DNA of 51,014 nucleotides, from the sequence record NC_054896.1, one strand, 5' to 3'. The stretch is from Escherichia phage tiwna. Every line of letters starts with the position of its first letter. Position 1 is the stretch's first letter. The translations under genes were made by a program, and so were the position numbers. Below are positions 344-50,187 of this stretch, piece after piece. The notes under the pieces were generated by a model. It was not told the DNA's origin. It saw nothing but the letters and a program-made list of their open reading frames with translations, and did not search any database.

Positions 344-535
344 ATGGCTGACTTTATGCATCAAATGATTGTTGTATTTAAGGGCAGTGAAGATGAAGAG
401 GTTCGCGAATGCTTCACCATTGAGAAATCATACAGCGCATCTTTAACCAGTTTTGGCAACATATCTATGATTGATGATAATGGCGATCCGTGGATTTTTG
501 AAGATGATACGGATTGCTTTGAGATTAAAGAATAG
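344..535 (+). CDS. small acidic hypothetical protein (63 aa)
   Basis: ATG with upstream GGAG; D/E-rich product; its TAG stop is the first triplet of the conserved box at 533. Confidence 0.5.
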   Translation: MADFMHQMIVVFKGSEDEEVRECFTIEKSYSASLTSFGNISMIDDNGDPWIFEDDTDCFEIKE

Positions 536-550
536 CACTTTTTGCAAAAA
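533..550 (+). promoter_or_regulatory. conserved box (variant TTGCAAAAA) with -10 TATAGT at 570-575 in a hairpin loop
   Basis: TAGCACTTTTTGCAAAAA; hairpin gggcttgcggTATAGTaagccc. Confidence 0.5.
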
Positions 551-606
551 CAGATTATCGGGCTTGCGGTATAGTAAGCCCATCGACAACGAAAGAGGAA
601 GAGGCG

Positions 607-906
607 ATGTTAGTACGCAATGCGATCTATAAATTCACAAACGAGATGGGGGTTCACCTTTACCACGTAAACCATCAAGGCAACACCTCAATTGCGATGT
701 ATCGCGACGCTCGCGGGAAGTGTAGGCCTTCTCTTCGTGGCAGAATTTCTCCTGCGTTCTTCATGTTTAGATGGTATGCAACAGAACAAATCAACCATAA
801 CCATTGGAATAAAGTATTGATTGCAGGAGGCCGAATTGTTGCCAGTCACGTAGTCGATCCTTGCAAACTAACCAGCCGCCAGCTTCGCAAAATGGCGCGC
901 AAATAG
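607..906 (+). CDS. hypothetical protein (99 aa)
   Basis: RBS gaggaagagg before ATG; TAG stop embedded in the box at 904. Confidence 0.5.
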   Translation: MLVRNAIYKFTNEMGVHLYHVNHQGNTSIAMYRDARGKCRPSLRGRISPAFFMFRWYATEQINHNHWNKVLIAGGRIVASHVVDPCKLTSRQLRKMARK

Positions 907-921
907 CACTTTTTGTTAAAA
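904..921 (+). promoter_or_regulatory. conserved box with -10 TATAGT at 941-946 in a hairpin loop
   Basis: TAGCACTTTTTGTTAAAA; hairpin ggcctgcggTATAGTaggcc. Confidence 0.5.
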
Positions 922-977
922 TCAACTTTACGGCCTGCGGTATAGTAGGCCCATCAACAACAAACGAGGATTAAATC

Positions 978-3507: not shown

Positions 3508-3525
3508 TAGCACTTTTTGTTAAAA
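3508..3525 (+). promoter_or_regulatory. conserved box followed by a hairpin
   Basis: TAGCACTTTTTGTTAAAA; hairpin aaggggcatttgataaagtgccctt. Confidence 0.45.
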
Positions 3526-3582
3526 CTTCCGAAGGGGCATTTGATAAAGTGCCCTTATTGAAGCGAAACAGAGGAAAGCGCA

Positions 3583-5554: not shown

Positions 5555-5560
5555 AAATCA

Positions 5561-5583
5561 CCCGCCGAACGGCGGGTTTTTTA
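5561..5583 (+). terminator. rho-independent terminator
   Basis: Hairpin cccgccgaacggcggg followed by a T-run. Confidence 0.7.
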
Positions 5584-6160: not shown

Positions 6161-7728
6161 TGATCATATGGGAAGATTTGACGGCGGCGCAAAAGCGAGC
6201 CATTAAAGAAATCAGTGAGCATTCATTCGAAAAGATGATCAGAATCTGGTTCCAATTATTGCAGGGGCAAAAATTCCAGAGCAACTGGCATTTTAGCTTA
6301 TTGTGCAGTGAGGTAGAGAAGATCATCAATGGAGAGTCGCAGAATGTGATTTTCAACATTACGCCAGGTAGCGGCAAGACTGAGATTTTCTCGATCCACA
6401 TGCCACCCTACGCGTCATTGAAAAGCCGGAAAGTGAGAAACCTTAACCTTTCGTTTAGTGATGGCCTTGTCCAGCAAAACAGCAACCGGATAAAGGAGAT
6501 TATCGGTTCTCCTGAGTGGCAAGAGCTATGGCCTGGAAAACTGGCAAAGGCGAGCGCTAAAGATCTGATAGTCACCGAAGGCGGCAAGGTTAAATTGCAA
6601 GTTAACTCACGTTCTATTGGCGGCCAGGTAACAGGTTTGCGTGGCGGCTATATGGATGATGGTTTTACTGGTATGCTGGTTCTTGACGATCCAGACAAGC
6701 CGGATGATATGCTTTCTAAGGTCAAGCGCGAGGCTATTCACATGCGGTTAAAAAACACAGTGCGATCGCGTCGAATGAAAGACACCACGCCAATTGTTAT
6801 GGTGCAACAGCGACTACACGTTAATGATTCCACCTGGTTCATGCTTAATGGCGGGATGGGTGGTATTGAGTTTAAAGTCGTGAGCATTCCGGCGCTGGTT
6901 ACGAAAGAATACCGCGAAACGCTTCCTGATTGGTTGAAGCCTGAATTTGATCGTGATGTGCTGTCAAGTAAGCCAGTGATGATAGATGGCGTCGCTCATT
7001 ATTCATTTTGGCCTGCGAAGGAAAGCGCGGAGGAGTTGCTTGCATTGCGCAATGCAGATCCTTACACGTTCGCCAGCCAATACCAACAGCAACCAATCGC
7101 GCTTGGCGGGAACGTGTTTAAAACAGAGTGGTTCCAGTATTACGGAAGCGGCGAAAAGTGCGCACTACCAAAACCGGATCGCTTTGAATACACATTTATT
7201 ACTGGAGATACCGCGCAGAAGGCCGGAGAGCTTAACGACTATTCGGTTTTTTGTTATTGGGGGATGTATAAGAATCGCGTTTACTTCATTGATGGCATTC
7301 GCGGAAAGTGGGAAGCGCCGGATCTTGAATTAAATTTTATTGCCTTCGTTAACCAGTGCTGGAAGCGCAATAAGGAGTGTGGCAGCTTGCGACGTATCCA
7401 CATTGAGGATAAGGCCAGCGGCACGGGTTTGATTCAGGGGGCCAAAAAGAAGATCCCGATTGATATAAATCCCGTTCAGCGAAGCAATGACAAGGTGACG
7501 CGAGCAATGGACGCCGCGCCAGTAATGAGGGCCGGACGTGTGGCGCTGCCAGAAAATCACCCCATGCTGCCTGAGATACTGGCAGAGGTTGCAGCATTCA
7601 CTTTTGATGATTCTCATCCCCATGATGATATTGTCGATAATATAGTTGATGCTGTTAACGTCGAAATGAATTTGGCAGATGATCCGGTAGCAAGGATGAA
7701 AAAGCTGGCAGGTCTACGCAATAAATAG
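6160..7728 (+). CDS. terL: terminase large subunit
   Basis: Walker A TPGSGKTE in the N-terminal ATPase, acidic nuclease-type C-terminus, 522 aa, precedes portal. Confidence 0.8.
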   Translation: MIIWEDLTAAQKRAIKEISEHSFEKMIRIWFQLLQGQKFQSNWHFSLLCSEVEKIINGESQNVIFNITPGSGKTEIFSIHMPPYASLKSRKVRNLNLSFSDGLVQQNSNRIKEIIGSPEWQELWPGKLAKASAKDLIVTEGGKVKLQVNSRSIGGQVTGLRGGYMDDGFTGMLVLDDPDKPDDMLSKVKREAIHMRLKNTVRSRRMKDTTPIVMVQQRLHVNDSTWFMLNGGMGGIEFKVVSIPALVTKEYRETLPDWLKPEFDRDVLSSKPVMIDGVAHYSFWPAKESAEELLALRNADPYTFASQYQQQPIALGGNVFKTEWFQYYGSGEKCALPKPDRFEYTFITGDTAQKAGELNDYSVFCYWGMYKNRVYFIDGIRGKWEAPDLELNFIAFVNQCWKRNKECGSLRRIHIEDKASGTGLIQGAKKKIPIDINPVQRSNDKVTRAMDAAPVMRAGRVALPENHPMLPEILAEVAAFTFDDSHPHDDIVDNIVDAVNVEMNLADDPVARMKKLAGLRNK

Positions 7729-7743
7729 CACTAATTGCTAAAA
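7726..7743 (+). promoter_or_regulatory. conserved box (spacer variant CTAAT) after terL, with atypical spacing to TATAAT at 7749-7754
   Basis: TAGCACTAATTGCTAAAA; half-sites preserved. Confidence 0.4.
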
Positions 7744-7755
7744 AGTTATATAATC

Positions 7756-7782
7756 AAGGCTGGATTTTTCCAGCCTTTTTTA
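7756..7782 (+). terminator. rho-independent terminator after terL
   Basis: Hairpin ggctggatttttccagcc followed by a T-run. Confidence 0.6.
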
Positions 7783-7798
7783 TTATGGAGATTTGACT

Positions 7799-9091
7799 AT
7801 GAGCGAAAAAACAAGGCTAGTTAAGGCCGATGGATACAACGAGATTTTCAAGGGTAGCAAGGGCAATGGGCGTGTGGAGTTGCCTTTCTTTATGCAAGGG
7901 TTCGAATACACCACGCACGCTGATTTTTACATTCGCGACGGCCTAGCGAAACGAATCATCGACGTTGTTCCAGAAGAAATGGTGACACCTGGATTTAATA
8001 TTGATGGCGTGGAAGATGAGGAGAGTTTTAGATCTTTGTGGGATGAGAAGCGACTAAACGATAAAATCATTGATGCGCTTTGCTGGTCGCGTCTTTTTGG
8101 TGGCGCTGCAATCGTGGCAATCGTTCAGGATGGCAGGGCATTAAAGTCACCTGTAGCGCCTGGTGCAATCCTTGAAGATGTTCGCGTTTACGATCGCTTT
8201 CAGGTTCGCGTAGAAAAGCGAGAAACTAATCCACGCAAGGTACGATATGGTGAACCATTAATTTACACCATTGCACCTGGTGCCGACTTGCCAGAATACC
8301 AGGTTCACTATTCGCGAGTCTGTATCATCGACGGTGAGCGGCTACCGAATCAGCGACGTCAGTCAAATGATGGTTGGGGTGAGTCGATCTTGAATAAGCG
8401 ACTTGTTGAGGCCATTTGTGATTATAACTACTGCGAAAACTTAGCAACTCAATTGTTGCGACGTAAGCAACAGGCGGTATGGAAAGCTAAAGGTCTTGCT
8501 GATCTTTGTGATGATGATGATGGTGTTAACGCCGCACGTTTGCGCCTTGCTCAAGTTGATGATGAGGGTGGCGTAGGCCGTGCGATCGGCATTGATGCGG
8601 AAGATGAGGAATATGATGTTTTAAATTCTGATATTTCCGGCGTCGATTCATTCCTGGAAAAGAAGATGGATCGCATTGTATCGCTTTCCGGCATCCATGA
8701 AATCATCCTCAAAAATAAGAACGTTGGCGGTGTTAGCGCGAGCCAAAACACGGCGCTTGAAACCTTCTACAAGCTGATCGATCGAAAGCGAAAGGAAGAA
8801 TACAAACCAATCCTTGAATTTCTGATCCCGTTCCTGATTCAAGAGGAAGAATGGAGTATTCAGTTTGCGCCGTTAAGCGTTCCCAGCGAAAAGGACCAGG
8901 CCGAGATCTTGAACAAGAATATTGATTCTTTGAGCAAGGCTATTGACGGTCAATTCATGGATACAGAGGAGGCGCGCGACACATTGCGAGCCATTGCGCC
9001 TAACGTTAAACTAAAAGACGGCAATAACATTAAATTACCTGAGCAGGACGTAGAGCCGGAGCCAGGAACAACCGAGGGTAGCAATCAATGA
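7799..9091 (+). CDS. portal protein
   Basis: About 430 aa directly after terL; GGAG 8 nt before ATG 7799; acidic C-terminus. Confidence 0.7.
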   Translation: MSEKTRLVKADGYNEIFKGSKGNGRVELPFFMQGFEYTTHADFYIRDGLAKRIIDVVPEEMVTPGFNIDGVEDEESFRSLWDEKRLNDKIIDALCWSRLFGGAAIVAIVQDGRALKSPVAPGAILEDVRVYDRFQVRVEKRETNPRKVRYGEPLIYTIAPGADLPEYQVHYSRVCIIDGERLPNQRRQSNDGWGESILNKRLVEAICDYNYCENLATQLLRRKQQAVWKAKGLADLCDDDDGVNAARLRLAQVDDEGGVGRAIGIDAEDEEYDVLNSDISGVDSFLEKKMDRIVSLSGIHEIILKNKNVGGVSASQNTALETFYKLIDRKRKEEYKPILEFLIPFLIQEEEWSIQFAPLSVPSEKDQAEILNKNIDSLSKAIDGQFMDTEEARDTLRAIAPNVKLKDGNNIKLPEQDVEPEPGTTEGSNQ

Positions 9092-11542: not shown

Positions 11543-12325
11543 ATGGCTAAAGATTATTCATCTGTTATGGGTCTTTCTTGCCCTGGTTGTTTGGTTGATT
11601 CTACTCGCTACAATATTGATGGCACTGGAGTTTGCGGATCTGAGTCGATCATTGCTGGCAAAGTTGTTTTCTTCAAAGAGAGGGTGGAAGGTTATAACAT
11701 ATTTGTTGATCATAAAGAGTATGATGCGGTTGTTGCTGGCGTCGCGCTAAGGAGCAACATAACAACAACGGTTAACGAGGAAGATGGGTATTCTGACTAC
11801 AAGGAAGGAGACTCCATCAACATTTTGACAAGAGGTGTCGTATGGTGTGTAACTCAAACAATTGACTCGCCACCTGAACATGGTGATCTTGTTTATGTTA
11901 ACAATGATGGCTTTGTAGCAAAGAGTGACGGGGATGAAATTGTTGATGGCTGGATTTTTACTGGTGATTTTTACAAGTTTGATGAAACAATCAATATCGT
12001 TGGAGTTAGAATCACTCCTTTGCATCACAGAAAATACCCACTAACAGCGGCAATAATTGAGGCAGATGGCGATTATGTTGAGGGAACGCCAACAAGAAAC
12101 AACGTTCAGCTTAAAGTAACCGTAGCTCCTGAGTGGGCAGATGATAAGACTGGTCAATGGGTAATAACAAATCCTCAAAGTCCAAAGGTGGCAACAATTA
12201 GCCAAACAGGTCTGGTTGTTCCTTCTGGAGTTGGGGGTAGTGTTAATGTTAACTGGACCGCAAATGACGGTTCGGGCGTTGCGGATCAGTTCGATATAGT
12301 TTTTGAGAAAACCGTAGGCGAATAA
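11543..12325 (+). CDS. capsid accessory protein, paralog 2, with C-terminal extension
   Basis: AGGAG 7 nt before ATG 11543 (the overlapping track ORF at 11538 is too close to the RBS); N-terminal half is paralogous to 10982. Confidence 0.45.
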   Translation: MAKDYSSVMGLSCPGCLVDSTRYNIDGTGVCGSESIIAGKVVFFKERVEGYNIFVDHKEYDAVVAGVALRSNITTTVNEEDGYSDYKEGDSINILTRGVVWCVTQTIDSPPEHGDLVYVNNDGFVAKSDGDEIVDGWIFTGDFYKFDETINIVGVRITPLHHRKYPLTAAIIEADGDYVEGTPTRNNVQLKVTVAPEWADDKTGQWVITNPQSPKVATISQTGLVVPSGVGGSVNVNWTANDGSGVADQFDIVFEKTVGE

Positions 12326-12351
12326 CTAATAGCATAAAAAAACATTGCACG

Positions 12352-12368
12352 TTTAACAAAAAGTGCTA
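12352..12368 (-). promoter_or_regulatory. conserved palindromic box, inverted copy inside the late operon
   Basis: TTTAACAAAAAGTGCTAT, directly upstream of a terminator-like hairpin and the major capsid RBS. Confidence 0.4.
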
Positions 12369-12374
12369 TCATCT

Positions 12375-12400
12375 AGGCCGTTACATTTAGCGGCCTTTTA
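12375..12400 (+). terminator. weak terminator/attenuator hairpin
   Basis: Hairpin ggccgttacatttagcggcc followed by a short T-run. Confidence 0.4.
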
Positions 12401-16038: not shown

Positions 16039-16061
16039 AGGGGCGTTGCGCCCCTTTTTTC
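16039..16061 (+). terminator. rho-independent terminator after the major tail gene
   Basis: Hairpin aggggcgttgcgcccct followed by T6. Confidence 0.7.
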
Positions 16062-16100
16062 ATTCCTGTAAAATCAATCTATCAAATAAATCAATTCCAC

Positions 16101-16119
16101 TTTTAACAAAAAGTGCTAT
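16101..16119 (-). promoter_or_regulatory. conserved palindromic box, inverted copy abutting the chaperone RBS
   Basis: TTTTAACAAAAAGTGCTAT immediately followed by AAGGAG and ATG 16134. Confidence 0.4.
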
Positions 16120-16133
16120 AAGGAGATCTTGAG

Positions 16134-16451
16134 ATGGCAAAGATGAAACTAACGTTAGGCCCACTGCCTGATTTTAAGCTACCTGTTTCTTTCGTGCTTC
16201 CAAATGGTGATGAGCAAGTTATTGTTTTCACAGTACGCCACAAGAAGGCAAGCGAGATTCACGAGCGATACACGGCAGAAAAGCCGATGAGTGACGTAGA
16301 AATGATCACCTTCCTTGCTTCCGGTTGGGATCTGGATGATGAATTTAATGAGGAGAACGTTGCTAAATTGCTGGATTATTACCCGTCTGCGTCATTATCG
16401 CTGACTGGTCATTATATGAAAGCGCTTGCGGGGCAGCGGGTAAAAAACTAA
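16134..16451 (+). CDS. tail assembly chaperone (lambda G-like)
   Basis: About 105 aa directly upstream of the tape measure gene; ends just past a slippery heptamer. Confidence 0.6.
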   Translation: MAKMKLTLGPLPDFKLPVSFVLPNGDEQVIVFTVRHKKASEIHERYTAEKPMSDVEMITFLASGWDLDDEFNEENVAKLLDYYPSASLSLTGHYMKALAGQRVKN

Positions 16452-26671: not shown

Positions 26672-26727
26672 CTTCAATACTCCTTAGTTGTCGTTGTCTG
26701 TAACTATACACGATCCGACAAGCGGCG

Positions 26728-26744
26728 TTTAGCAAAAAGTGCTA
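26728..26744 (-). promoter_or_regulatory. conserved palindromic box (minus orientation) with -10 at 26703-26708
   Basis: TAGCACTTTTTGCTAAA on the minus strand, 19 bp from TATAGT, upstream of the lipoprotein operon. Confidence 0.5.
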
Positions 26745-29750: not shown

Positions 29751-31879
29751 TTATCACTTAACTTTGAAATTAAATTTCTAATTTCGTTAATTTCTGATTT
29801 TAACATTTCTATTTCCTCTTGCTGTTTTTTTATTAATTCCTCTTGTCTATCTGAGTCAGAGATCATCTCATTTATAGCATTTACAAGCAATGCAGTAACG
29901 CCGCTATAACTTACACCCAAGTAATCAGAGTCTGATATTTTGTAAACAGCCTCCGGTAAAACATTTTGCACATCTTGAGCTATTACCCCAGCCTCCTCCG
30001 AATATATAGAATATTCATCTTCATAAAGATTACTGCGCTTAAAGTAAGTGTAACCCTTGATTGACTTCACTTTTTCTCTAGCGCCCTTAATCTCCTTCAA
30101 GTTTGCTTTCAGTCTAATATCTGACGTGCTGACCCATTGAACACATGAGGCGTAACCAGCATCATTAAATCCGAAAATCGCACCCCTTACATTAAAATGA
30201 GCCGCGCAACCTCCACTGCTATATCTGACAACATCAAGACCAGCAACCCATTCATAACCCCACCGAACGGCCTTAAAGATGCTTGAGGCTGCATCATCTG
30301 TTGGCAACTCAACAAGAAGACCAGACGCTCTATCCCTCCAGTCAGTAAAAGCACCTCCATATACTTGACCGCCAATTAGAGCATTGCCTCCGCCAATTCT
30401 AGATCCTGAAACTCTAATGCCATTTGCGTTATTATCAATAGGCCATATGGTTAAAAGACCGTTAAGGTGAGCTTGATATGCCTCCCATGTAAAAACATTT
30501 CTACCGTTTGCGAATGTCTGTAATATGCCGTCCCCACCTTGCTTAAACCCGGTGTCGCTATCACCTATAACTAACGAATTAGACCCAAGTGAATTTATAA
30601 TGCCTCTACCAATTGTTATTGTATTGTAATTTATGGCGTTTCCGCTTTCGTCAAATTGATAATAGTTTGTATCTCCACCTTCTCTTGTTACCTGTATTGT
30701 TGCTTTAGCTGTACCACCTATAATTTCATTGTAGACCCTTGAGTATGAAAGCTGCACACCTTCTGCGTTCTTGTTTCTAAGGTAAAGAATGCCTGATGCT
30801 TCTCCGTTGTTGTTATCAAGATTTACCCCCAAGAATACAGGGATATGATTTGTCGCAAGCCCTAAATTGTGCCTTACTCCATCGGGAGTTGTTGCGCCTG
30901 TACCGCCAGCGCCAATAGAAAGCGCATATGTAGCGTTATCACTATTACTTGCAACTCTCCATTCTCCATTGTTAGCAATCCTCAATTCATAGCTTGCTTG
31001 CGGATTAGCGAAGCTGTTGTAATCGCCAGGCGTTGAATGAGAAGCCGGATCATTGCTAATTACCGCTTGAACCTGCAACACTTTTCTTGCTTCAGCCTTA
31101 TCAGTAAGATCATTAAGGTTTTGATCCTTATGGAGAATATTTTCAGGATTTACTTGTTGCGCCCATTGCATAGCCTCATCTCTTGCAGATTCAGCGGCTG
31201 ATTTTGCACTTTCAGCATAATTCTTGGCATTGTCAGCCTCATTTTTAGCATTAATTGCGCCATCTCTAGCTGATTCAGCCTCTGATTTAATGCTTGTAAC
31301 CTCAACAACTGCAGAGTCCTTTATTTGCTGAGTCTGATCTTTAATTGATTGAGCCTCGTTTTTTATGGCGTTAGTTTCGCTTACTGCGTCATCTTTGATC
31401 TTCTGAGTTTCAGCTAGGGCAGAATCCTTTATCTGTTGAGTGTCATTTTTTAATTGCTCAGTGGCTGCGCGATCTGTTGCTACTTGTTGCGCAGACTCCT
31501 TAACTTGATTCACCAGATCCTTTAAGCCATCCAAATCAAAATCTTTAAAAAACTCTATTGCTTCTGCAATTTCTGTTTCCTTGCTCTGGTAATAACGCAA
31601 AGTTTCCGCTACATCCTGCGCAAGCCCGTCAACCGTTAACGAGTCATGAAGCAAGATCAGGTAATTTGTTTGCTGAACTACTTCACCGCCAGTAGTAATG
31701 GCGCGAATGCTTGTATCGCTAATCACCTCTGTGATCACGGCAGCTTGCAAAGGTTGAGTAAGAAAGAAAATAGTTGCACCTGGGCGAATCAATGTTAATT
31801 GCTCGCGCCATTTTGTTTCGTAACCAGTAACATAACCTTGAGCGTCCATCGACGCTTGGCCTTGTCTGTAAATCGCCAT
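29747..31879 (-). CDS. tail fibre protein with C-terminal intramolecular chaperone (S74-type) domain
   Basis: C-terminal SDIRLK motif and following about 110 aa resemble self-cleaving chaperone domains; coiled-coil Q/K-rich region; GGAGG RBS before ATG 31879. Confidence 0.65.
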
Positions 31880-31897: not shown

Positions 31898-31914
31898 TAG
31901 CACTTTTTGCTAAT
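31898..31914 (+). promoter_or_regulatory. conserved palindromic box (perfect palindrome TAGCA-N5-TGCTA) abutting the tail fibre RBS
   Basis: TAGCACTTTTTGCTAAT; lies between the primase terminator and the tail fibre RBS. Confidence 0.4.
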
Positions 31915-31943
31915 GACAATGCAGATAATAGCATTTTCAAATG

Positions 31944-32970: not shown

Positions 32971-33447
32971 TTAGCTATTCGTGCTGTTATCACCTTTGTA
33001 GAATCTTCCGCCTGGTTCGTAGTCTGAATTTTTGACTACGCGCAACATTTCGTATTTGTCGCAACGGGTAGTAAGAGGCTTGCCGTTAGAATCAAACCGC
33101 AGATCTGGACGACAAAACGAGGCGCGGTATCCTTTGCATCCATTATATTTGTAGTCGTTATGCACCTTTTGTGCTCCAGCGGCTGAAATCATACCACGCT
33201 TTCGCCACTGGTTAACGACTTGCTGAGATACGCGCAGACGTCGAGCCATAGCAGGAACACCGCCGTAATACTCGATCAGAATGTCAAGGCGAGATTTTAG
33301 GCTTGCTTTTACCTCATCTCGCAGGATAAGAAATCCGGTTCGGTGTTTTCGTGGCTTTTTGTCTTTACCTCGTCGCGTTCCGTTGTTACCGTTAATAGTG
33401 CGCTTGTCGATCTCACCCGTAGACACTGCAATTCGTGCATCTTTCAT
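32971..33447 (-). CDS. putative DNA-binding protein (HTH)
   Basis: Candidate HTH segment AMARRLRVSQQVVNQWRKRG; basic N-terminus; divergent from the helicase gene. Confidence 0.45.
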   Translation of the reverse strand: MKDARIAVSTGEIDKRTINGNNGTRRGKDKKPRKHRTGFLILRDEVKASLKSRLDILIEYYGGVPAMARRLRVSQQVVNQWRKRGMISAAGAQKVHNDYKYNGCKGYRASFCRPDLRFDSNGKPLTTRCDKYEMLRVVKNSDYEPGGRFYKGDNSTNS

Positions 33448-33459
33448 CTAGTCACCTCA

Positions 33460-33477
33460 TAGCATTTTTTGTTAAAA
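33460..33477 (+). promoter_or_regulatory. conserved box with -10 TATTAT at 33497-33502, in the divergent region between the HTH and helicase genes
   Basis: TAGCATTTTTTGTTAAAA with the 19-bp spacing to the -10. Confidence 0.5.
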
Positions 33478-33534
33478 CAGTTTATTGTAATGAGTCTATT
33501 ATATACTCCAAATGGCATTTTTTAAAGGTTTAAG

Positions 33535-35532: not shown

Positions 35533-35951
35533 TGGCTATAACTGATAAAGGCGATTATCTTGAGTTTTACGAAAGGGATCCAACCGACACGAGAAGGGAA
35601 GTTAATCACCAGATAGATAGTTTTCAGTGGTTGACTTATGCTCATCCTTATTTGCTGGCGTGGCATACGGTAAACGAGAATGAGAAGTCTAAAGCAACGG
35701 CGATGATTGATCAGCAGTCCGGCTTGGTTAAGGGAGTAAGCGATTTCATCATCCTGATTGGTTTAAACGGAAAATACCCCTTTGCAGCGATTGAGATCAA
35801 ACGAGTGAATAAATCAGGCAAGGGGAAAGCATCACCAGTCAGCGATGAACAAAAGGCTTTTTTGCGTCGCGTTCGCAGCTTAGGAGGATTCGCTGCGGTA
35901 GCCTACGGATTCAATCAGTTTAAGTTGGCTATTGAATACATGCTTAAATAG
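35532..35951 (+). CDS. VRR-NUC domain nuclease
   Basis: Motifs AIEIKR (E.K) and QKAFLRRVRSLGG typical of VRR-NUC; ATG overlaps the helicase stop. Confidence 0.5.
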   Translation: MAITDKGDYLEFYERDPTDTRREVNHQIDSFQWLTYAHPYLLAWHTVNENEKSKATAMIDQQSGLVKGVSDFIILIGLNGKYPFAAIEIKRVNKSGKGKASPVSDEQKAFLRRVRSLGGFAAVAYGFNQFKLAIEYMLK

Positions 35952-35966
35952 CACTTTTTGTTAAAA
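35949..35966 (+). promoter_or_regulatory. conserved box with -10 CATAAT at 35986-35991
   Basis: TAGCACTTTTTGTTAAAA; TAG is the stop codon of the upstream gene. Confidence 0.5.
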
Positions 35967-36031
35967 CTGGCGCGATGGATTGCGCCATAATTCAATAACG
36001 CGAGATGGCTTTTAATAGCGGAGAAATGAAA

Positions 36032-37019: not shown

Positions 37020-37065
37020 TAGCACTTTTTGTTAAAACGCCCGGCCTAGTGTCGGGCATAATTAT
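37020..37065 (+). promoter_or_regulatory. conserved box plus hairpin plus -10 CATAAT; left arm of the ~46-bp inverted repeat
   Basis: TAGCACTTTTTGTTAAAAcgcccggcctagtgtcgggCATAAT, nearly identical to the reverse complement of 40234-40279. Confidence 0.55.
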
Positions 37066-37094
37066 TTCAACGAAGCAAGCATGAGGAAATAAAA

Positions 37095-39568: not shown

Positions 39569-39960
39569 TGAAGAAATTTTTACTTACACCAATCGCAATG
39601 GCGGTGATCTTGTCTGGATGTTCAAGCGTTACGCCACTGACCGGATTAATCGGCAGTAAGCCGGAAATCACAGCACAGGCTGGCGCGGAGAACGTGAAGC
39701 AGACAGTTGGCATTACAGAAAAGCATGACGCCAGCACAAAACAGAAAACCACAATAAAGGAATCTGCGGTTGACAAGGTTGACACGTCCAGCAAGAAGGA
39801 TTTCACAACATCAACCATTCAGGCCAATACCATCAAGGCAGACAAAATTCAGGTCGTGCAGGGTAATAACGGCAGATGGTACGATCCAATAATCATATGC
39901 GTGGTTGTGTTAATTGTGCTGATTTGTCTTTACTGGAGAGAAAAGAAAAAGGAGGCTTAA
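39565..39960 (+). CDS. unimolecular spanin (lipoprotein with C-terminal TMD)
   Basis: Lipobox ILSGC at the N-terminus and C-terminal [18 protein letters not shown], as in the T1-type u-spanin; the track start is TTG, real ATG at 39565. Confidence 0.6.
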
Positions 39961-39976
39961 TGCCTCCTTTATTTTT
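39945..39976. terminator. bidirectional terminator
   Basis: Hairpin aggaggcttaatgcctcct with flanking A- and T-runs, overlapping the spanin stop. Confidence 0.55.
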
Positions 39977-40199: not shown

Positions 40200-40233
40200 A
40201 ATTTTACCTTTTGGTTGTTTCGTTTCGATGAAA

Positions 40234-40279
40234 CAAATATACCCGACACTAGGCCGGGCGTTTTAACAAAAAATGCTAT
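40234..40279 (-). promoter_or_regulatory. conserved box plus hairpin plus -10; right arm of the ~46-bp inverted repeat
   Basis: Reverse complement reads ATAGCATTTTTTGTTAAAAcgcccggcctagtgtcgggTATATT. Confidence 0.55.
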
Positions 40280-42369: not shown

Positions 42370-42422
42370 TCGTTAGCTTCTCCTTTGTGGGCCGTAAATT
42401 TTAACGGCCCAATACTACCCCG

Positions 42423-42441
42423 TTTTGTCAAAAAGTGCTAT
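42423..42441 (-). promoter_or_regulatory. conserved box (variant TTGACAAAA), minus orientation
   Basis: TAGCACTTTTTGACAAAA on the minus strand; TAG is the stop of gene 42438..42659. Confidence 0.5.
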
Positions 42442-43042: not shown

Positions 43043-43096
43043 GATCAGATCTCCTTTGTTTGTTCGATGTGATTATGCCAGGTTTTTACACCTGGC

Positions 43097-43115
43097 TTTT
43101 AACAAAAAGTGCTAT
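43097..43115 (-). promoter_or_regulatory. conserved box, minus orientation, with -10 at 43062-43067
   Basis: TAGCACTTTTTGTTAAAA, hairpin gccaggtgtaaaaacctggc, then CATAAT. Confidence 0.5.
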
Positions 43116-43822
43116 TTTGAGTTTGACTCAAAGACGGCGCGAGCAAAGCCGCGCGGAGTGAGGGAGCGGATCATCTTTGTGCGCGATGACTTACCGCCAG
43201 TTTTGGCCCAGCCTGGATTATCTTTGTCTTCCTCTTTCGGCAGGATTAAAGCGCGCGGAGGAATAACAAAGCCGTTGCCAGTCCAGAGGCACGTTTTCTT
43301 AAAATAGCGATCCCGTGCCGGAATAATATCAGGGAAGTCGGGATGTTTATCATCTTCCGGCAGATAGCCAGCGTAATCGCACGGATGGAACGTATAATCA
43401 GGCTTTCGCCATAACGTTGACAACTTGCCAACCGGATTTTCGATCATGTAAGGAACACCGAAATAATCAGCTATATCAGCCGCGATTCTGCAAGTGTCGG
43501 CGGCCTCATCCTGGAACGATGGATTCTCAAGGCGTTTTTTGGCCCAATGGCGAGATCCGCTATTTGCAAGGTCAGTGCATGGTGGGAAGGCCATAATAAA
43601 ATCAGGATTGCCCCACTCATTATTGATTGCCTTAACATAAAAAGCATCATCAATCCAGGCGTTAACGTATTCGATATTCTCATGCTGTATGCGCACTGAC
43701 TGGTAATCACCGTGATCGCCACCGTCAGCATTAAAGCAAATGCACTTATAGCCATTATCAGCCCAATCTTTAACGGCTTTACCAGATCCATCAAATAGGG
43801 AGAATATTAAACCTTTATACAT
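43112..43822 (-). CDS. small DNA C5-cytosine methyltransferase-like protein
   Basis: Motif I-like LFDGSG, motif IV-like FPPC, motif VI-like IENP in the expected order; GAGG RBS before ATG 43822. Confidence 0.4.
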   Translation of the reverse strand: MYKGLIFSLFDGSGKAVKDWADNGYKCICFNADGGDHGDYQSVRIQHENIEYVNAWIDDAFYVKAINNEWGNPDFIMAFPPCTDLANSGSRHWAKKRLENPSFQDEAADTCRIAADIADYFGVPYMIENPVGKLSTLWRKPDYTFHPCDYAGYLPEDDKHPDFPDIIPARDRYFKKTCLWTGNGFVIPPRALILPKEEDKDNPGWAKTGGKSSRTKMIRSLTPRGFARAVFESNSK

Positions 43823-45239: not shown

Positions 45240-45295
45240 CTTTAAATCCTCGCTTGTTTTCGATGGGTGTAATATACCATTCAGGCGCACATCGT

Positions 45296-45314
45296 TTTTA
45301 ACAAAAAGTGCTAT
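45296..45314 (-). promoter_or_regulatory. conserved box, minus orientation, with -10 at 45271-45276
   Basis: TAGCACTTTTTGTTAAAA then 19 bp then TATATT. Confidence 0.5.
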
Positions 45315-45601
45315 TCAACAACTTTTCCAGTTAAAGAGATAAGTTGCCTTGTAATCTTGTGGCGGCGATACTTACGCGCAACAACAGGAAGGCTTTCACC
45401 GCTTTGATGACCAAAACAGATCGGCAATTCACCTTCAAGCGAACGGAAGCCGCCAAATTCAAGATCCCGCACTGGCTTAGCGCGCCAGGCTTCAATAAAT
45501 CCGCGCTCGTCACGAGTGATATAGCGGTATATATTTGGGAGGGGCAATTGTATCCCCTCAAAATCCACTGTGTCGGTGTAGCTGTAAAACTTAGAACTCA
45601 T
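45311..45601 (-). CDS. hypothetical protein (96 aa)
   Basis: GGAG RBS before the internal ATG (MSSKFY...); stop codon is the TAG of the box. Confidence 0.45.
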   Translation of the reverse strand: MSSKFYSYTDTVDFEGIQLPLPNIYRYITRDERGFIEAWRAKPVRDLEFGGFRSLEGELPICFGHQSGESLPVVARKYRRHKITRQLISLTGKVVE

Positions 45602-45744: not shown

Positions 45745-45801
45745 TTCAAATCCTCGCATTCGTTGTCGATGCGTGTAATGTACAGGAATGCGAGGATTGA
45801 G

Positions 45802-47046: not shown

Positions 47047-47105
47047 TGCTATCTCCTGAGCGGTTCGTTTTGATGTGTGTAATGTACCCGATCAGGTGGC
47101 CTGAG

Positions 47106-47124
47106 TTTTAACAAAAAGTGCTAT
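47106..47124 (-). promoter_or_regulatory. conserved box, minus orientation, with -10 at 47081-47086
   Basis: TAGCACTTTTTGTTAAAA then 19 bp then TACATT. Confidence 0.5.
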
Positions 47125-47394
47125 TTGACGGTTAGCGCCAGGATTGTGATCGAAATAATCAAAAGTAATCATTCGTAATCAAATCACGTCAAAATGATGA
47201 TTGCCTTTGCAAATTTGATGAGAAAAGCAATCACGTTTAATCATTGGTTGCAGGGGAGATAGTGAAACCTTCCCCTCTCGCCTCAATTTTCCGCCTGGCT
47301 GTCAGTGGTTGTTATGTTCCGTTCCCGCCTGTTCTTTTGTTGACCTTCCGCAAAATACGATAACAAAAAATAACAAACAATACCTATATAATAC

Positions 47395-47660
47395 ATTGAA
47401 AAATAAGGATTATTTATTTATATGTATCTATATATTCTCTTTTGTTATCTTGGTTATTGTGGTATTTGGTGGGGTATATAGTTTTTGTGTATCTGTATGT
47501 GTGTATGGGTATGTAGGGGCATATATATCTATATGGCACTTTCCGCGAGAAAACTTCGATAACAGGCAATGATAACATTGATTTATAAGGAAAAATAACG
47601 CCTATATTGTTATTGTGCCACCATGTAAAATTGATAAAACACGCGGGAACAAGAAAAAAC
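47395..47660. repeat. GT-rich strand-biased noncoding region B, homologous to 26855-27060
   Basis: Shared blocks ttatttatttat, ttgttatct, gtatctgtatgtg and gggaacaagaaaaa; G-runs ggtgggg and gtagggg. Confidence 0.5.
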
Positions 47661-47662
47661 AG

Positions 47663-47691
47663 TTGACACATTAAATAGCATTATTGATAAT
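47663..47691 (+). promoter_or_regulatory. near-consensus sigma70 promoter (TTGACA-17-GATAAT)
   Basis: -35 at 47663-47668 and -10 at 47686-47691, about 28 nt before the AGGAGG RBS of gene 47720. Confidence 0.6.
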
Positions 47692-48184: not shown

Positions 48185-48441
48185 AAAAGGCATTAATCGG
48201 CGTTTTGGTGGCAATGGCATTCCTGACCGGATGCGAAAAGGCATCAGAATCAACGGTTGTCGTAGGCGTGGAGTCAGATTTCAAAGTCGGCCGCCTGTTC
48301 ACTGTTGACGGATGCACAGCATACAGATTCTATGATAACGGTCGCGCGATCTATTACACCAATTGCAAGGGCGCAACGGATAGCACGTACAACAGCGGAA
48401 AGAACGTAATGCACCAGCAAGTCACAACAGATATTAAATAG
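48181..48441 (+). CDS. small lipoprotein (86 aa)
   Basis: Signal peptide with lipobox LTGC (MKKALIGVLVAMAFLTGC); ATGA coupling. Confidence 0.5.
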   Translation: MKKALIGVLVAMAFLTGCEKASESTVVVGVESDFKVGRLFTVDGCTAYRFYDNGRAIYYTNCKGATDSTYNSGKNVMHQQVTTDIK

Positions 48442-48456
48442 CACTTTTTGTTAAAA
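48439..48456 (+). promoter_or_regulatory. conserved box with -10 CATAAT at 48476-48481
   Basis: TAGCACTTTTTGTTAAAA, hairpin gccaggcgcaaagcctggc, then CATAAT. Confidence 0.5.
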
Positions 48457-48513
48457 CGCCAGGCGCAAAGCCTGGCATAATAGCCTCATCGAAACGAGAT
48501 TGAGGAAACAAAA

Positions 48514-49965: not shown

Positions 49966-50118
49966 ATGGCTACATGGATTCTACTGATTCTTATGATTGA
50001 TGGCGGCGTTGACCATATCGAAATGAATAGCCAGCAATCTTGCATTGAGGCACGAGAGCAGATCAAGAACAACAACAGGTTTTATGCGTACACTCACACG
50101 CTATGTATTAAGAAATAG
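49966..50118 (+). CDS. small membrane peptide (50 aa)
   Basis: RBS gaggtgagag; hydrophobic N-terminus; TAG stop is the first triplet of the box at 50116; below the ORF-track cutoff. Confidence 0.35.
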   Translation: MATWILLILMIDGGVDHIEMNSQQSCIEAREQIKNNNRFYAYTHTLCIKK

Positions 50119-50133
50119 CACTTTTTGTTAAAA
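50116..50133 (+). promoter_or_regulatory. conserved box with -10 TATAAT at 50152-50157
   Basis: TAGCACTTTTTGTTAAAA then 18 bp then TATAAT. Confidence 0.5.
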
Positions 50134-50187
50134 CTCAAATGTGGGGCCAGGTATAATGGCCTCACTTTCAACGAAGGAGATAAAACG

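What the first reader, a model, noticed from the sequence alone, without database searches (positions are those of the whole stretch)
560..581. -10 hexamers embedded in loops or flanks of GC-rich hairpins within the box promoters
In several box promoters the 19-bp spacer and -10 form a GC-rich stem-loop, e.g. gggcttgcggTATAGTaagccc (560-581), ggcctgcggTATAGTaggcc (932-951), gccaggcgcaaagcctggCATAAT (48457-48481) and cgcccggcctagtgtcgggCATAAT (37038-37062). Such structure in promoter DNA is unusual. It could act as a terminator for read-through from the upstream gene (insulating each small gene), as a structured promoter, or as a stabilising 5' stem-loop if transcription starts upstream.
Basis: seen in the sequence. 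Interest (0 to 1): 0.6.

Follow-up and report, generated by a model that had tools for sequence, protein, structure and literature searches.

The report
Read-through hairpins nested in phage promoters
In this T1-like coliphage, most copies of a repeated promoter cassette carry a GC-rich RNA hairpin between the upstream box and the start site; it probably curbs transcripts reading through from the preceding gene, a siphovirus counterpart of the promoter/stem-loop cassettes (PeSLs) of T4-like phages.

Summary
The window is a Drexlerviridae (Warwickvirus) genome with about 19 copies of the box AGCACTTTTTGTTAAAA. Each is followed by a 19-nt spacer, a TAnnnT hexamer with G at -14, a C-A start 7 nt later, a 25-nt leader, SD and ATG. 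Eleven of 19 copies fold at -12 to -17 kcal/mol as RNA, against 3.5% of random 40-mers.

In 268 unique copies from 120 related phage loci the hairpins fall into classes. Some fill the spacer, some enclose the -10, a few are true terminators with TTTT, and some pair the spacer with the SD.

Stems covary. G.T outnumbers A.C 74:21, and GNRA/UUCG loops occur on the sense strand only. Hairpins are present at 71% of boxes with a co-oriented upstream gene and at 7% of divergent ones. They therefore act as sense RNA made only by read-through, not as promoter DNA structure.

My best reading is a nested attenuator or insulator of the upstream transcription unit. Most lack a U-tract, so canonical termination is unproven.

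The cassettes are also junctions of gene swaps. The box is a published repeat of unknown function (TLS, 2024), and T1's record already calls four such hairpins terminators. This is a new variant of a known kind (PeSL).

The parts
534..606 (+). Box cassette. Box 534-550, spacer 551-569, -10 TATAGT 570-575, inferred +1 A at 582, SD, ATG at 607. The upstream ORF stops at the TAG overlapping the 5' edge of the box.
560..581 (+). Class A hairpin (the finding): GGGCTTGC/GTAAGCCC with the -10 in the loop. RNA -14.9 kcal/mol, z -4.2.
905..977 (+). Box cassette: box 905-921, -10 941-946, ATG 978. Class A hairpin at 932-951 (-13.6 kcal/mol).
3509..3582 (+). Box cassette of the CTTCCG..ATTGAAG subfamily. 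Class A hairpin at 3526-3563 (inner stem 3533-3556), -16.7 kcal/mol. -10 is TAAAGT at 3545-3550.
7727..7798 (+). Degenerate box (3 mismatches) followed by a canonical terminator at 7756-7777 plus TTTTTTATTAT, then SD and ATG at 7799.
35950..36025 (+). Box cassette. Class B hairpin at 35968-35987 (-12.1 kcal/mol) abutting -10 CATAAT at 35986-35991.
37021..37094 (+). Box cassette. Class B hairpin at 37039-37057 (-13.0 kcal/mol) followed by ATAATTATTT. The simple scan calls it terminator-like.
40200..40277 (-). Box cassette. Class B hairpin at 40241-40259 followed by ATATTTGTTT. The simple scan calls it terminator-like.
42370..42439 (-). Box cassette. Class A hairpin at 42388-42411 (GGGCCGT/ACGGCCC) with -10 TAAAAT in the loop, -15.6 kcal/mol.
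43043..43113 (-). Box cassette. Class B hairpin at 43077-43096 (-14.2 kcal/mol, z -6.3).
45240..45312 (-). Box cassette with a co-oriented upstream gene but no strong local hairpin. Its 5' edge is a homology breakpoint against phage atuna.
45744..45818 (-). Box cassette with a class D long-range helix at 45746-45800. The spacer sequence CAATCCTCGCATT pairs with GAATGCGAGGATTTG, which covers the SD (about -20 kcal/mol). The 5' arm lies upstream of the inferred +1.
48440..48513 (+). Box cassette. Class B hairpin at 48458-48476 (GCCAGGC/GCCTGGC, -15.7 kcal/mol) abutting CATAAT at 48476-48481.
50117..50187 (+). Box cassette. Class A hairpin at 50141-50165 with TATAAT in the loop (-16.4 kcal/mol). 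A 1.2-kb insertion relative to atuna ends 4 nt before the box.
33461..33534 (+). Box cassette at a divergent intergenic region, between the HTH regulator gene on the - strand and the helicase gene on the + strand. AT-rich spacer, no hairpin.
47047..47122 (-). Box cassette at the edge of a 640-nt divergent non-coding region. No GC hairpin.
16061..16117 (-). Reverse-oriented box in the late region. No GC hairpin, and its AT-rich fold is not conserved in relatives. It points into the bidirectional terminator at 16041-16055.
12311..12367 (-). Reverse-oriented box upstream of the major-capsid-like gene. No hairpin in its spacer.
26672..26743 (-). Box cassette with an 18-nt spacer and -10 TATAGT. 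It has only a weak or atypical fold.
31899..31915 (+). Degenerate box (3 mismatches) with no downstream gene on its strand. No hairpin.

Best explanation
Each element is a compact intergenic cassette. In order it contains the stop codon of the upstream gene (usually the TAG that overlaps the box), the 17-nt box, a 19-nt spacer, an extended-(-10)-like promoter core (G at -14, TAnnnT), a C-A start 7 nt downstream, a roughly 25-nt A-rich leader, the SD and the ATG.

The spacer and discriminator are free of promoter sequence constraints. They have been used to encode an RNA stem-loop whose 5' arm always lies upstream of the cassette's own inferred start site. The structure therefore exists only in transcripts that began at an upstream promoter and read through.

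In such RNA the structure marks and limits the upstream transcription unit in several ways. Class C hairpins carry a TTTT run and are ordinary intrinsic terminators. Class B hairpins abut the A/T-rich -10 and are probably partial terminators or attenuators. Class D helices sequester the downstream SD. Class A hairpins enclose the -10 and run into +1 to +5; their effect is the least clear, and could be pausing, 3'-end protection or insulation.

The net effect is that each small gene is expressed mainly from its own promoter.

What is shown: the anatomy, enrichment, covariation, sense-strand RNA signature, dependence on upstream context, and breakpoint clustering.

What is inferred: that the box element is a promoter, the position of +1, and the actual termination or insulation activity.
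For: - Enrichment: 11 of 19 copies in the window fold at or below -12 kcal/mol, against 3.5% of random 40-mers.
- Across 120 related loci there are 268 unique copies. Spacer length is 19 nt in 237 of them, and loop positions are bimodal.
- Covariation: 82-93% of cells are paired against 30-51% with slid partners. Covariation scores are 0.52-0.53 against 0.04-0.16. None of 500 shuffles reached the observed values. One subfamily was chosen by its flanking sequence rather than by folding, and it sits before at least 10 unrelated genes.
- Sense-strand RNA signature: internal G.T to A.C is 74:21 (p = 4e-8), 22:1 in class B and 44:18 in class A, against 552:544 in random 40-mers. Sense MFE is lower than antisense MFE (p = 2e-7). 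Eleven GNRA/UUCG tetraloops occur on the sense strand and none as reverse complements.
- Context: 138/194 boxes with a co-oriented upstream ORF have a hairpin, against 1/15 divergent boxes (p about 1e-6). In the window the figures are 11/14 against 0/5.
- Short hairpins that end early in the spacer are followed by TTTT in 7 of 10 cases.
- Two class B hairpins in the window pass a terminator scan.
- T1's GenBank record annotates four box-associated hairpins as rho-independent terminators.
- Class D helices pair the spacer with the SD.
- An analogous PeSL stem-loop reduced lacZ expression as strongly as rrnB T1 (PMC2839356).
Against: - Most hairpins lack a U-tract. The tail score is 1.4 for class B and 0.3 for class A, against about 4-4.5 for canonical terminators in the window.
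- T content after class B hairpins equals that of hairpin-less promoters.
- Class A hairpins have 6-10-nt loops and A-rich tails, which is atypical for terminators.
- About 29% of co-oriented cassettes have no strong local hairpin, and recombinant cassettes with broken stems exist, so the structure is dispensable.
- I found no transcript-end data for any T1-like phage.
- The promoter status of the box element and the +1 position are inferred from sequence only. No canonical -35 lies at a workable distance.
Confidence: 0.6

Rival explanations
1. The hairpins do not terminate transcription. They protect RNA 3' ends or define processing points. Read-through polycistronic RNA is cut in the AU-rich leader or box, and the hairpin blocks 3'-to-5' exonucleases, which stabilises the upstream cistron. 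REP elements and intercistronic stem-loops work this way.
For: This needs no U-tract, which fits the tails of class A and B. It is also consistent with the sense-strand RNA signature and the dependence on a co-oriented upstream gene.
Against: It does not explain why short hairpins that end early in the spacer are followed by TTTT. It does not explain why class D helices target the SD. There is no processing data.
Confidence: 0.2
2. The inverted repeats are a DNA-level promoter device. They extrude as a cruciform, or present the -10 as single-stranded DNA in a loop, and so tune or enable recognition by RNA polymerase. This would resemble N4 virion-RNAP hairpin promoters or single-strand promoters.
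For: In class A the -10 hexamer does lie in the loop. The box has no canonical -35 at a workable distance.
Against: Hairpin-less box promoters have identical geometry. Hairpins are missing at divergent promoters. The strand asymmetry of G.T over A.C, and the GNRA loops, are not expected for a duplex or cruciform. The DNA hairpins are weak and have long loops. Class B hairpins do not expose the -10.
Confidence: 0.05
3. The hairpins are by-products or substrates of the recombination that shuffles ORFs between cassettes, for example as targets of a structure-specific nuclease. They would have no role in gene expression.
For: Homology breakpoints cluster at the cassettes. They are enriched 24-fold in the 10 nt 5' of the box and 4.4-fold at +42 to +100. 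Chimeric cassettes exist. The window and atuna differ by ORF swaps bounded by cassettes.
Against: Breakpoints pile up at the conserved box edge and at the SD/ATG, not in the hairpin; only 6 fall at +17 to +42. The strand-specific RNA signature and the dependence on upstream gene orientation are unexplained by this model. Recombination needs only the conserved box and leader.
Confidence: 0.07
4. The box plus hairpin is an RNA-level nut-like site, with a boxA-like element followed by a boxB-like hairpin. It would load antitermination factors onto polymerases coming from upstream.
For: The arrangement is a conserved linear motif followed by a stem-loop, often with a GNRA loop. The box RNA GCACUUUUU loosely resembles boxA GCUCUUUA, but that comparison rests on memory only.
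Against: Hairpin sequence, loop and position are highly variable, which is incompatible with a specific hairpin-binding protein. The rigid 19-nt spacing from box to TAnnnT, maintained despite complete spacer turnover, argues for DNA geometry. The box also occurs without any hairpin.
Confidence: 0.04
5. The hairpins are 5' stabilising stem-loops of transcripts that start inside or just after the box.
For: The TGnTAAAA part of the box superficially resembles an extended -10.
Against: That hexamer lacks the T at -7. Class B stems begin 1-3 nt after the box and would be truncated. A 5' stabiliser would be needed at divergent promoters too, yet hairpins are absent there.
Confidence: 0.03

Closest known systems
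PeSLs (promoter-early stem-loops) of T4-like myoviruses RB49/phi1, PST and nt-1 (PMC2839356, PMC4122927)
   Same: Both are repeated intergenic cassettes that start at the stop codon of the upstream gene and end at the SD and ATG of the next. Both combine a host-type promoter with a stem-loop placed mostly between the upstream element and the -10, or overlapping the -10. Both flank small genes of unknown function. Both are the junctions of insertions, deletions and replacements between related genomes.
   Different: The sequences are unrelated and the virus family differs (Drexlerviridae siphoviruses). The upstream element here is a 17-21-nt box with 19-nt spacing, not a consensus -35 with an AT-rich tract. 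Stems here have varied sequence rather than a Gn-loop-Cn form. A spacer-to-SD class is present here. Terminator activity and mini-circles are untested here.
The 21-nt intergenic direct repeat aaATAGCACnnnTTGnTAAAA of TLS, T1, Rtp and Rogue1 (PMC11447400)
   Same: It is the same box, with the same orientation relative to genes. Its stated distance of about 76 nt from start codons matches the 17 + 56 to 58 nt measured here.
   Different: That paper treats the repeat alone and lists its function as an open question, suggesting a stoperator, an enhancer site or an UP element. It does not describe the fixed-distance -10, the conserved start and leader, or the hairpins.
Intrinsic (Rho-independent) terminators
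   Same: Class B and C hairpins have 5-8-bp GC-rich stems and 4-5-nt loops, often GNRA or UUCG, and lie just after a stop codon. Class C is followed by TTTT. Some are annotated as terminators in the T1 record.
   Different: Most lack the U-tract. Class A has large loops and A-rich tails.
Intercistronic protective or processing hairpins (REP elements, T7 early RNase III sites)
   Same: They are sense-strand RNA stem-loops between cistrons of read-through transcripts.
   Different: The stems here are too short for typical RNase III substrates. They are nested in a promoter. No processing evidence exists.
Phage N4 early hairpin promoters
   Same: Both place an inverted repeat at a promoter.
   Different: N4 promoters have conserved 5-7-bp stems and 3-nt loops read by a virion RNA polymerase. 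No such polymerase is annotated in the close relative atuna or reported for TLS (PMC11447400). The stems here vary in sequence and show RNA-level asymmetry.

Membership tests
PeSL-type composite promoter/stem-loop cassette | Repeated intergenic motif that contains a host sigma70-type early promoter | tested here: inconclusive
   The motif is repeated 19 times in the window. It has TAnnnT at a fixed 19 nt, G at -14 in 92% of copies, and C-A at -1/+1. No canonical -35 is present: TTGnTA would be 22 nt away, and canonical scans are not above shuffles. Promoter activity has not been measured.
PeSL-type composite promoter/stem-loop cassette | Stable stem-loop inside the promoter, most often between the upstream element and the -10 or overlapping the -10 | tested here: met
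   Loop positions are bimodal, giving class B in the spacer and class A around the -10.
PeSL-type composite promoter/stem-loop cassette | Cassette runs from the stop codon of the upstream gene to the SD and ATG of the downstream gene | tested here: met
   The upstream stop is the TAG overlapping the box in 125 of 191 co-oriented cases. The ATG lies 53-65 nt after the box.
PeSL-type composite promoter/stem-loop cassette | Indel and replacement breakpoints between related genomes fall at the cassettes (modular shuffling) | tested here: met
   Of 386 unique breakpoints, 29 lie in the 10 nt 5' of the box (24-fold enrichment) and 31 lie at +42 to +100 (4.4-fold). Examples against atuna are at 45315/45741 and 50113.
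PeSL-type composite promoter/stem-loop cassette | Preferential association with small genes of unknown function in plastic regions | tested here: met
   Hairpin-bearing cassettes lie at 0.5-3.6 kb and 36-50 kb, among 50-130-codon ORFs. The atuna record annotates those ORFs as hypothetical proteins.
PeSL-type composite promoter/stem-loop cassette | Stem-loop terminates or attenuates transcription in vivo; mini-circles form by recombination between cassettes | not testable with these tools
   This needs reporter, Term-seq and inverse-PCR experiments.
PeSL-type composite promoter/stem-loop cassette | Homology or taxon: T4-like myoviruses | tested here: not met
   The window is 98% identical to Warwickvirus atuna, Drexlerviridae. 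The box is unrelated to PeSL sequences, so this is an analogue and not a homologue.
Intrinsic terminator | GC-rich hairpin with a short loop, on the sense RNA | tested here: met
   Class B has about 7 bp and a loop of about 4.8 nt. GNRA/UUCG loops and the G.T bias occur on the sense strand.
Intrinsic terminator | U-rich tract directly 3' of the stem | tested here: not met
   The mean tail score is 1.4 for class B and 0.3 for class A, against 4-4.5 for bona fide terminators. The feature is met only for class C and about 8% of class B.
Extended -10 sigma70 promoter | TGn immediately upstream of TAnnnT, with a start 6-8 nt downstream | tested here: inconclusive
   G at -14 occurs in 92% of copies but T at -15 in only 41%. 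A at position 2 and T at position 6 of the hexamer, and A at +1 (94%), are conserved. The A and T of the hexamer were partly imposed by my filter.
Hairpin/cruciform (N4-type or single-strand) promoter | Conserved stem-loop required for polymerase recognition at every promoter copy | tested here: not met
   The stems vary in sequence and position. They are absent from divergent and some co-oriented copies.
lambda/rrn nut-like antitermination site | Conserved boxA plus a hairpin with a conserved loop at fixed distance | tested here: not met
   Hairpin loop, sequence and distance all vary. The boxA likeness was not tested.

The most novel reading that the evidence does not exclude
T1-like phages independently evolved a PeSL-like system that discriminates transcripts by origin. 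An unconventional promoter class is defined by the 17-21-nt box at -48 to -32, read either by host RNA polymerase in an unknown mode or by a phage factor. Each copy carries a structure that forms only in read-through RNA and either stops that RNA or hides the next gene's SD. Every gene cassette is thus self-contained and can be swapped between genomes at the conserved box and leader without disturbing its neighbours. This would answer the published open question about the function of the 21-nt repeat.
Probability: 0.3. Interest if true: 0.65.

Novelty: new variant of a known kind. Interest (0 to 1): 0.5.

Why it matters
- It assigns a testable role to a repeat that the 2024 TLS re-annotation lists as an open question. 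In this reading the repeat is the upstream element of a fixed-geometry promoter cassette.
- It shows that nested promoter/stem-loop cassettes are not peculiar to T4-like myoviruses. They recur in an unrelated siphovirus family with unrelated sequence, which argues for convergent selection for self-insulated, exchangeable gene cassettes in lytic phages.
- It offers compact natural parts for synthetic biology: promoters of about 70 nt with a built-in read-through insulator.
- It shows that the current annotation of "terminators" and "few promoters" in Drexlerviridae genomes misses this architecture.

Tried and rejected
- **Canonical sigma70 scan.** Hits were no more frequent than in shuffles, and box promoters were not picked up except 50128. 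The box is therefore not a standard -35.
- **Rfam.** No family matched in the window.
- **Literature.** The exact box sequence is not found in any paper. I found no transcript map for a T1-like phage. PeSLs are reported only for T4-like phages.
- **Canonical terminator hypothesis for all hairpins.** Rejected as a general statement, because the tails are not U-rich and are no more T-rich than in hairpin-less promoters.
- **Cruciform or structured-promoter idea.** Rejected on context dependence, strand asymmetry and weak DNA energies.
- **Antisense terminator idea.** The reverse complement of a class B hairpin is followed by TTTTAAC from the box. Rejected because G.T exceeds A.C on the sense strand.
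- **The AT-rich fold at 16068-16100(-).** It scores z -4.9 but is not conserved in relatives, so I treat it as incidental.
- **My first context classifier** mislabelled some sites. I replaced it with a stricter one.
- **My first A/B classifier** left many copies "mixed". I replaced it with one based on loop midpoint.
- **The hit at 43288(+)** (3 mismatches) has no promoter features and was dropped.

Full report
**What the window is.** The first 6 kb are 98% identical to Escherichia phage atuna, and there are many hits to T1-like coliphages and Klebsiella phages. Atuna belongs to Drexlerviridae, Tempevirinae, Warwickvirus. At 51,014 bases the window is essentially a whole genome of this type.

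**Checking the observation.**
- The four quoted stem-loops are present. The coordinates are exact except that the third starts at 48458 rather than 48457.
- The "box" AGCACTTTTTGTTAAAA occurs 20 times at up to 3 mismatches, against 0.45 expected. About 19 copies are real and they lie on both strands.
- Lining them up shows a complete cassette. It contains the upstream stop codon (usually the TAG in aaTAGCAC), the box, 19 nt of spacer, a TAnnnT hexamer, a conserved CATCGAAAACGA, the SD and the ATG.
- As RNA, the 40 nt after the box fold at -12.1 to -16.7 kcal/mol at ten copies, with z from -1.9 to -6.3. An eleventh copy, 7727, carries a canonical terminator.
- Only 3.5% of random 40-mers from the window reach -12 kcal/mol, so 11 of 19 gives p = 6e-12.

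**Bringing in relatives.**
One contig has the 49,902-bp length reported for TLS.
- Together with the window, these loci give 268 unique copies. The box-to-hexamer spacing is 19 nt in 237 of them, 18 nt in 21 and 20 nt in 8.
- The consensus is aAATAGCACTTTTTGtTAAAAc, then spacer with G at -14 (92%), then tATaaT, then five bases, then C(-1) A(+1, 94%) tcgaaAcgaa..gga.
- The spacer length is held constant while its sequence turns over completely. That argues that the box and the hexamer are read together on DNA, meaning this is a promoter. This is an inference, and no transcript map exists in the searchable literature.
- Canonical sigma70 sites are no more frequent than in shuffles. The TLS authors likewise found only three.

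**Anatomy of the hairpins.** Loop midpoints are bimodal.
- **Class B.** The midpoint is at 10-11.5. The stem is about 7 bp with a 4-5-nt loop. It fills the spacer and its 3' arm ends at spacer positions 19-21, abutting the -10.
- **Class A.** The midpoint is at 18-20.5. The 5' arm is in the spacer, the -10 is in the loop, and the 3' arm lies in the discriminator. The 3' arm often extends into the conserved CATCGA at +1 to +5.
- **Class C.** These are rare. A short hairpin sits right after the box and is followed by TTTTG and then the -10, which makes an ordinary intrinsic terminator. Seven of the ten short early-ending hairpins are followed by TTTT.
- **Class D.** Some cassettes without a local hairpin pair the spacer with the SD region of the downstream gene. 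An example is window 45746-45800(-), at about -20 kcal/mol.
- In every class the 5' arm lies upstream of the inferred start site.

**Are the stems under selection?**
- I built gapless alignments of 39 class B and 34 class A copies. They are 89% and 82% paired, against 30-46% when partners are slid by 1-3 columns. Covariation scores are 0.53 against 0.04-0.16, and none of 500 shuffles reached them.
- Those two sets were chosen by their fold, so I repeated the test on a subfamily chosen by its flanking sequence (CTTCCG../..ATTGAAG). That subfamily precedes at least ten unrelated genes.
- It is 92.9% paired, 8 of 13 pairs change on both sides, and the covariation score is 0.52 against 0.04-0.13.

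**At what level do they act?**
- I used a strand-symmetric stem finder. Among unique stems, internal G.T mismatches outnumber A.C by 74:21 (p = 4e-8). The split is 22:1 in class B and 44:18 in class A. Random 40-mers give 552:544.
- Sense RNA folds are more stable than antisense folds (p = 2e-7).
- Eleven of 30 tetraloops are GNRA or UUCG on the sense strand, and none are in reverse complement.
- As DNA hairpins the structures reach only -4.6 to -9.1 kcal/mol.
- The structures are therefore selected as sense-strand RNA.
- They start upstream of the cassette's own start site, so that RNA must come from an upstream promoter.

**Context test.**
- Where a co-oriented ORF of at least 40 codons ends at the box, 138 of 194 copies have a hairpin (MFE of -9 or lower).
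- Where the upstream gene is divergent, only 1 of 15 does (Fisher p about 1e-6).
- In the window the figures are 11 of 14 against 0 of 5, p = 0.005.
- Spacers without a hairpin have lower GC content, 0.49 against 0.64.
- This argues against any role intrinsic to promoter function and against a 5' stabiliser. It fits an element that belongs to the 3' end of the upstream transcription unit.

**Is it a terminator?** Only partly.
- Class C is canonical.
- Two class B hairpins in the window pass a simple terminator scan.
- The T1 GenBank record annotates four box-associated hairpins as rho-independent terminators.
- On average, however, tails after class B and class A stems score 1.4 and 0.3. Canonical terminators in the window score 4-4.5.
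- T content after class B stems is the same as in hairpin-less promoters.
- The mechanism for most copies is therefore open. Candidates are partial termination using the A/U-rich -10 as a weak tract, pausing, 3'-end protection, or insulation of the downstream translation start (class D).
- I commit to attenuation or insulation of read-through at confidence 0.6. A pure RNA-stabiliser role is the main rival, at 0.2.

**Comparison with what is known.**
- The box is the 21-nt intergenic direct repeat reported for TLS, T1, Rtp and Rogue1. Its function is listed there as an open question and hairpins are not mentioned (PMC11447400).
- The closest system is the PeSL of T4-like phages. It has the upstream stop codon, an AT-rich region, a promoter, a stem-loop lying mostly between -35 and -10 or overlapping the -10, and the SD and ATG.
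- One PeSL stem-loop reduced lacZ expression as strongly as rrnB T1, and PeSLs mediate modular shuffling (PMC2839356, PMC4122927).
- I tested the shuffling feature. Among 386 unique homology breakpoints in an all-against-all comparison, 29 fall in the 10 nt 5' of a box (24-fold enrichment) and 31 fall at +42 to +100, near the SD and ATG (4.4-fold).
- Against atuna, one ORF is replaced exactly between a box edge (45315) and the ATG of the preceding cassette (45741). A 1.2-kb insertion ends 4 nt before box 50117.
- The same downstream gene carries class A, class B or no hairpin in different phages. One cassette is a chimera with mismatched arms, which is a crossover footprint inside the -10.
- PeSLs are reported only for T4-like phages in the searchable library.
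- This element is an analogue and not a homologue. The sequence is unrelated, the upstream element is different, and it occurs in a siphovirus family.

**Verdict.** The feature is real, conserved and selected. The element is a new variant of a known kind, of moderate interest. The unconventional promoter and the class A mechanism are the parts still unexplained.

Noticed in passing
window 12351-12367(-) and 16101-16117(-); T1 locus L122 15084(-) and 18848(-): There are reverse-oriented boxes inside the + strand late-gene block, and T1 has them in the same places. Box 16117(-) sits 3 nt from the SD of the + strand gene at 16134. It points into the bidirectional terminator at 16041-16055, so it would make only a 40-45-nt RNA. 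Box 12367(-) lies just upstream of a + strand hairpin followed by TTTTAT (12376-12397) and the capsid-like gene. At divergent sites the box abuts the opposite gene's SD by 2-4 nt.
   Followed up: partly
window 47047-47683: This is a non-coding divergent region of about 640 nt between the two early gene arms. It holds the best canonical sigma70-like site in the window, 47663 TTGACA-17-GATAAT (11 of 12 matches). It may be the primary early control region.
   Followed up: no
window 32971-33447(-): This 158-aa protein has a Cro/YdaS-like helix-turn-helix (below Pfam cut-offs) and matches PHROG 2856, 'transcriptional regulator'. It is transcribed divergently from box 33461. It is a candidate reader of the box, but this is untested.
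   Followed up: partly
L122 (phage T1) 35930-35971(-), 38973-39001, 39998-40024, 41980-42007: The T1 GenBank record annotates these as rho-independent terminators. All four lie in the spacer/-10 region of a box copy.
   Followed up: yes
IMG/VR loci: L110, and the MKIKLLCTGGYKGF cluster: One cassette carries a tandem duplication of its spacer 5' arm. Another is a chimera, with 5' arm GGGATAAC from one family and 3' arm AACCCC from another, and its hairpin is destroyed. Both look like footprints of recombination inside cassettes.
   Followed up: partly
window 21975/21981, 29751-31089, 1616/1621: These are differences from phage atuna. Atuna has an HNH endonuclease gene and a 192-nt small gene that this genome lacks. 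The tail-fibre C-terminal part is replaced, which probably reflects a host-range difference.
   Followed up: no
window 5560-5577 and 39948-39970: Both are perfect bidirectional terminators, with T-runs on both strands.
   Followed up: no
L122 (T1) boxes at 2832, 4346, 4866, 6533: T1 uses a box variant, AGCACGAATTGCTAAAA, which is the 'G' group of the TLS paper. It has the same 19-nt spacing and hairpins. The central three bases are free while ATAGCAC and TTGnTAAAA are fixed, which suggests a bipartite recognition site.
   Followed up: no
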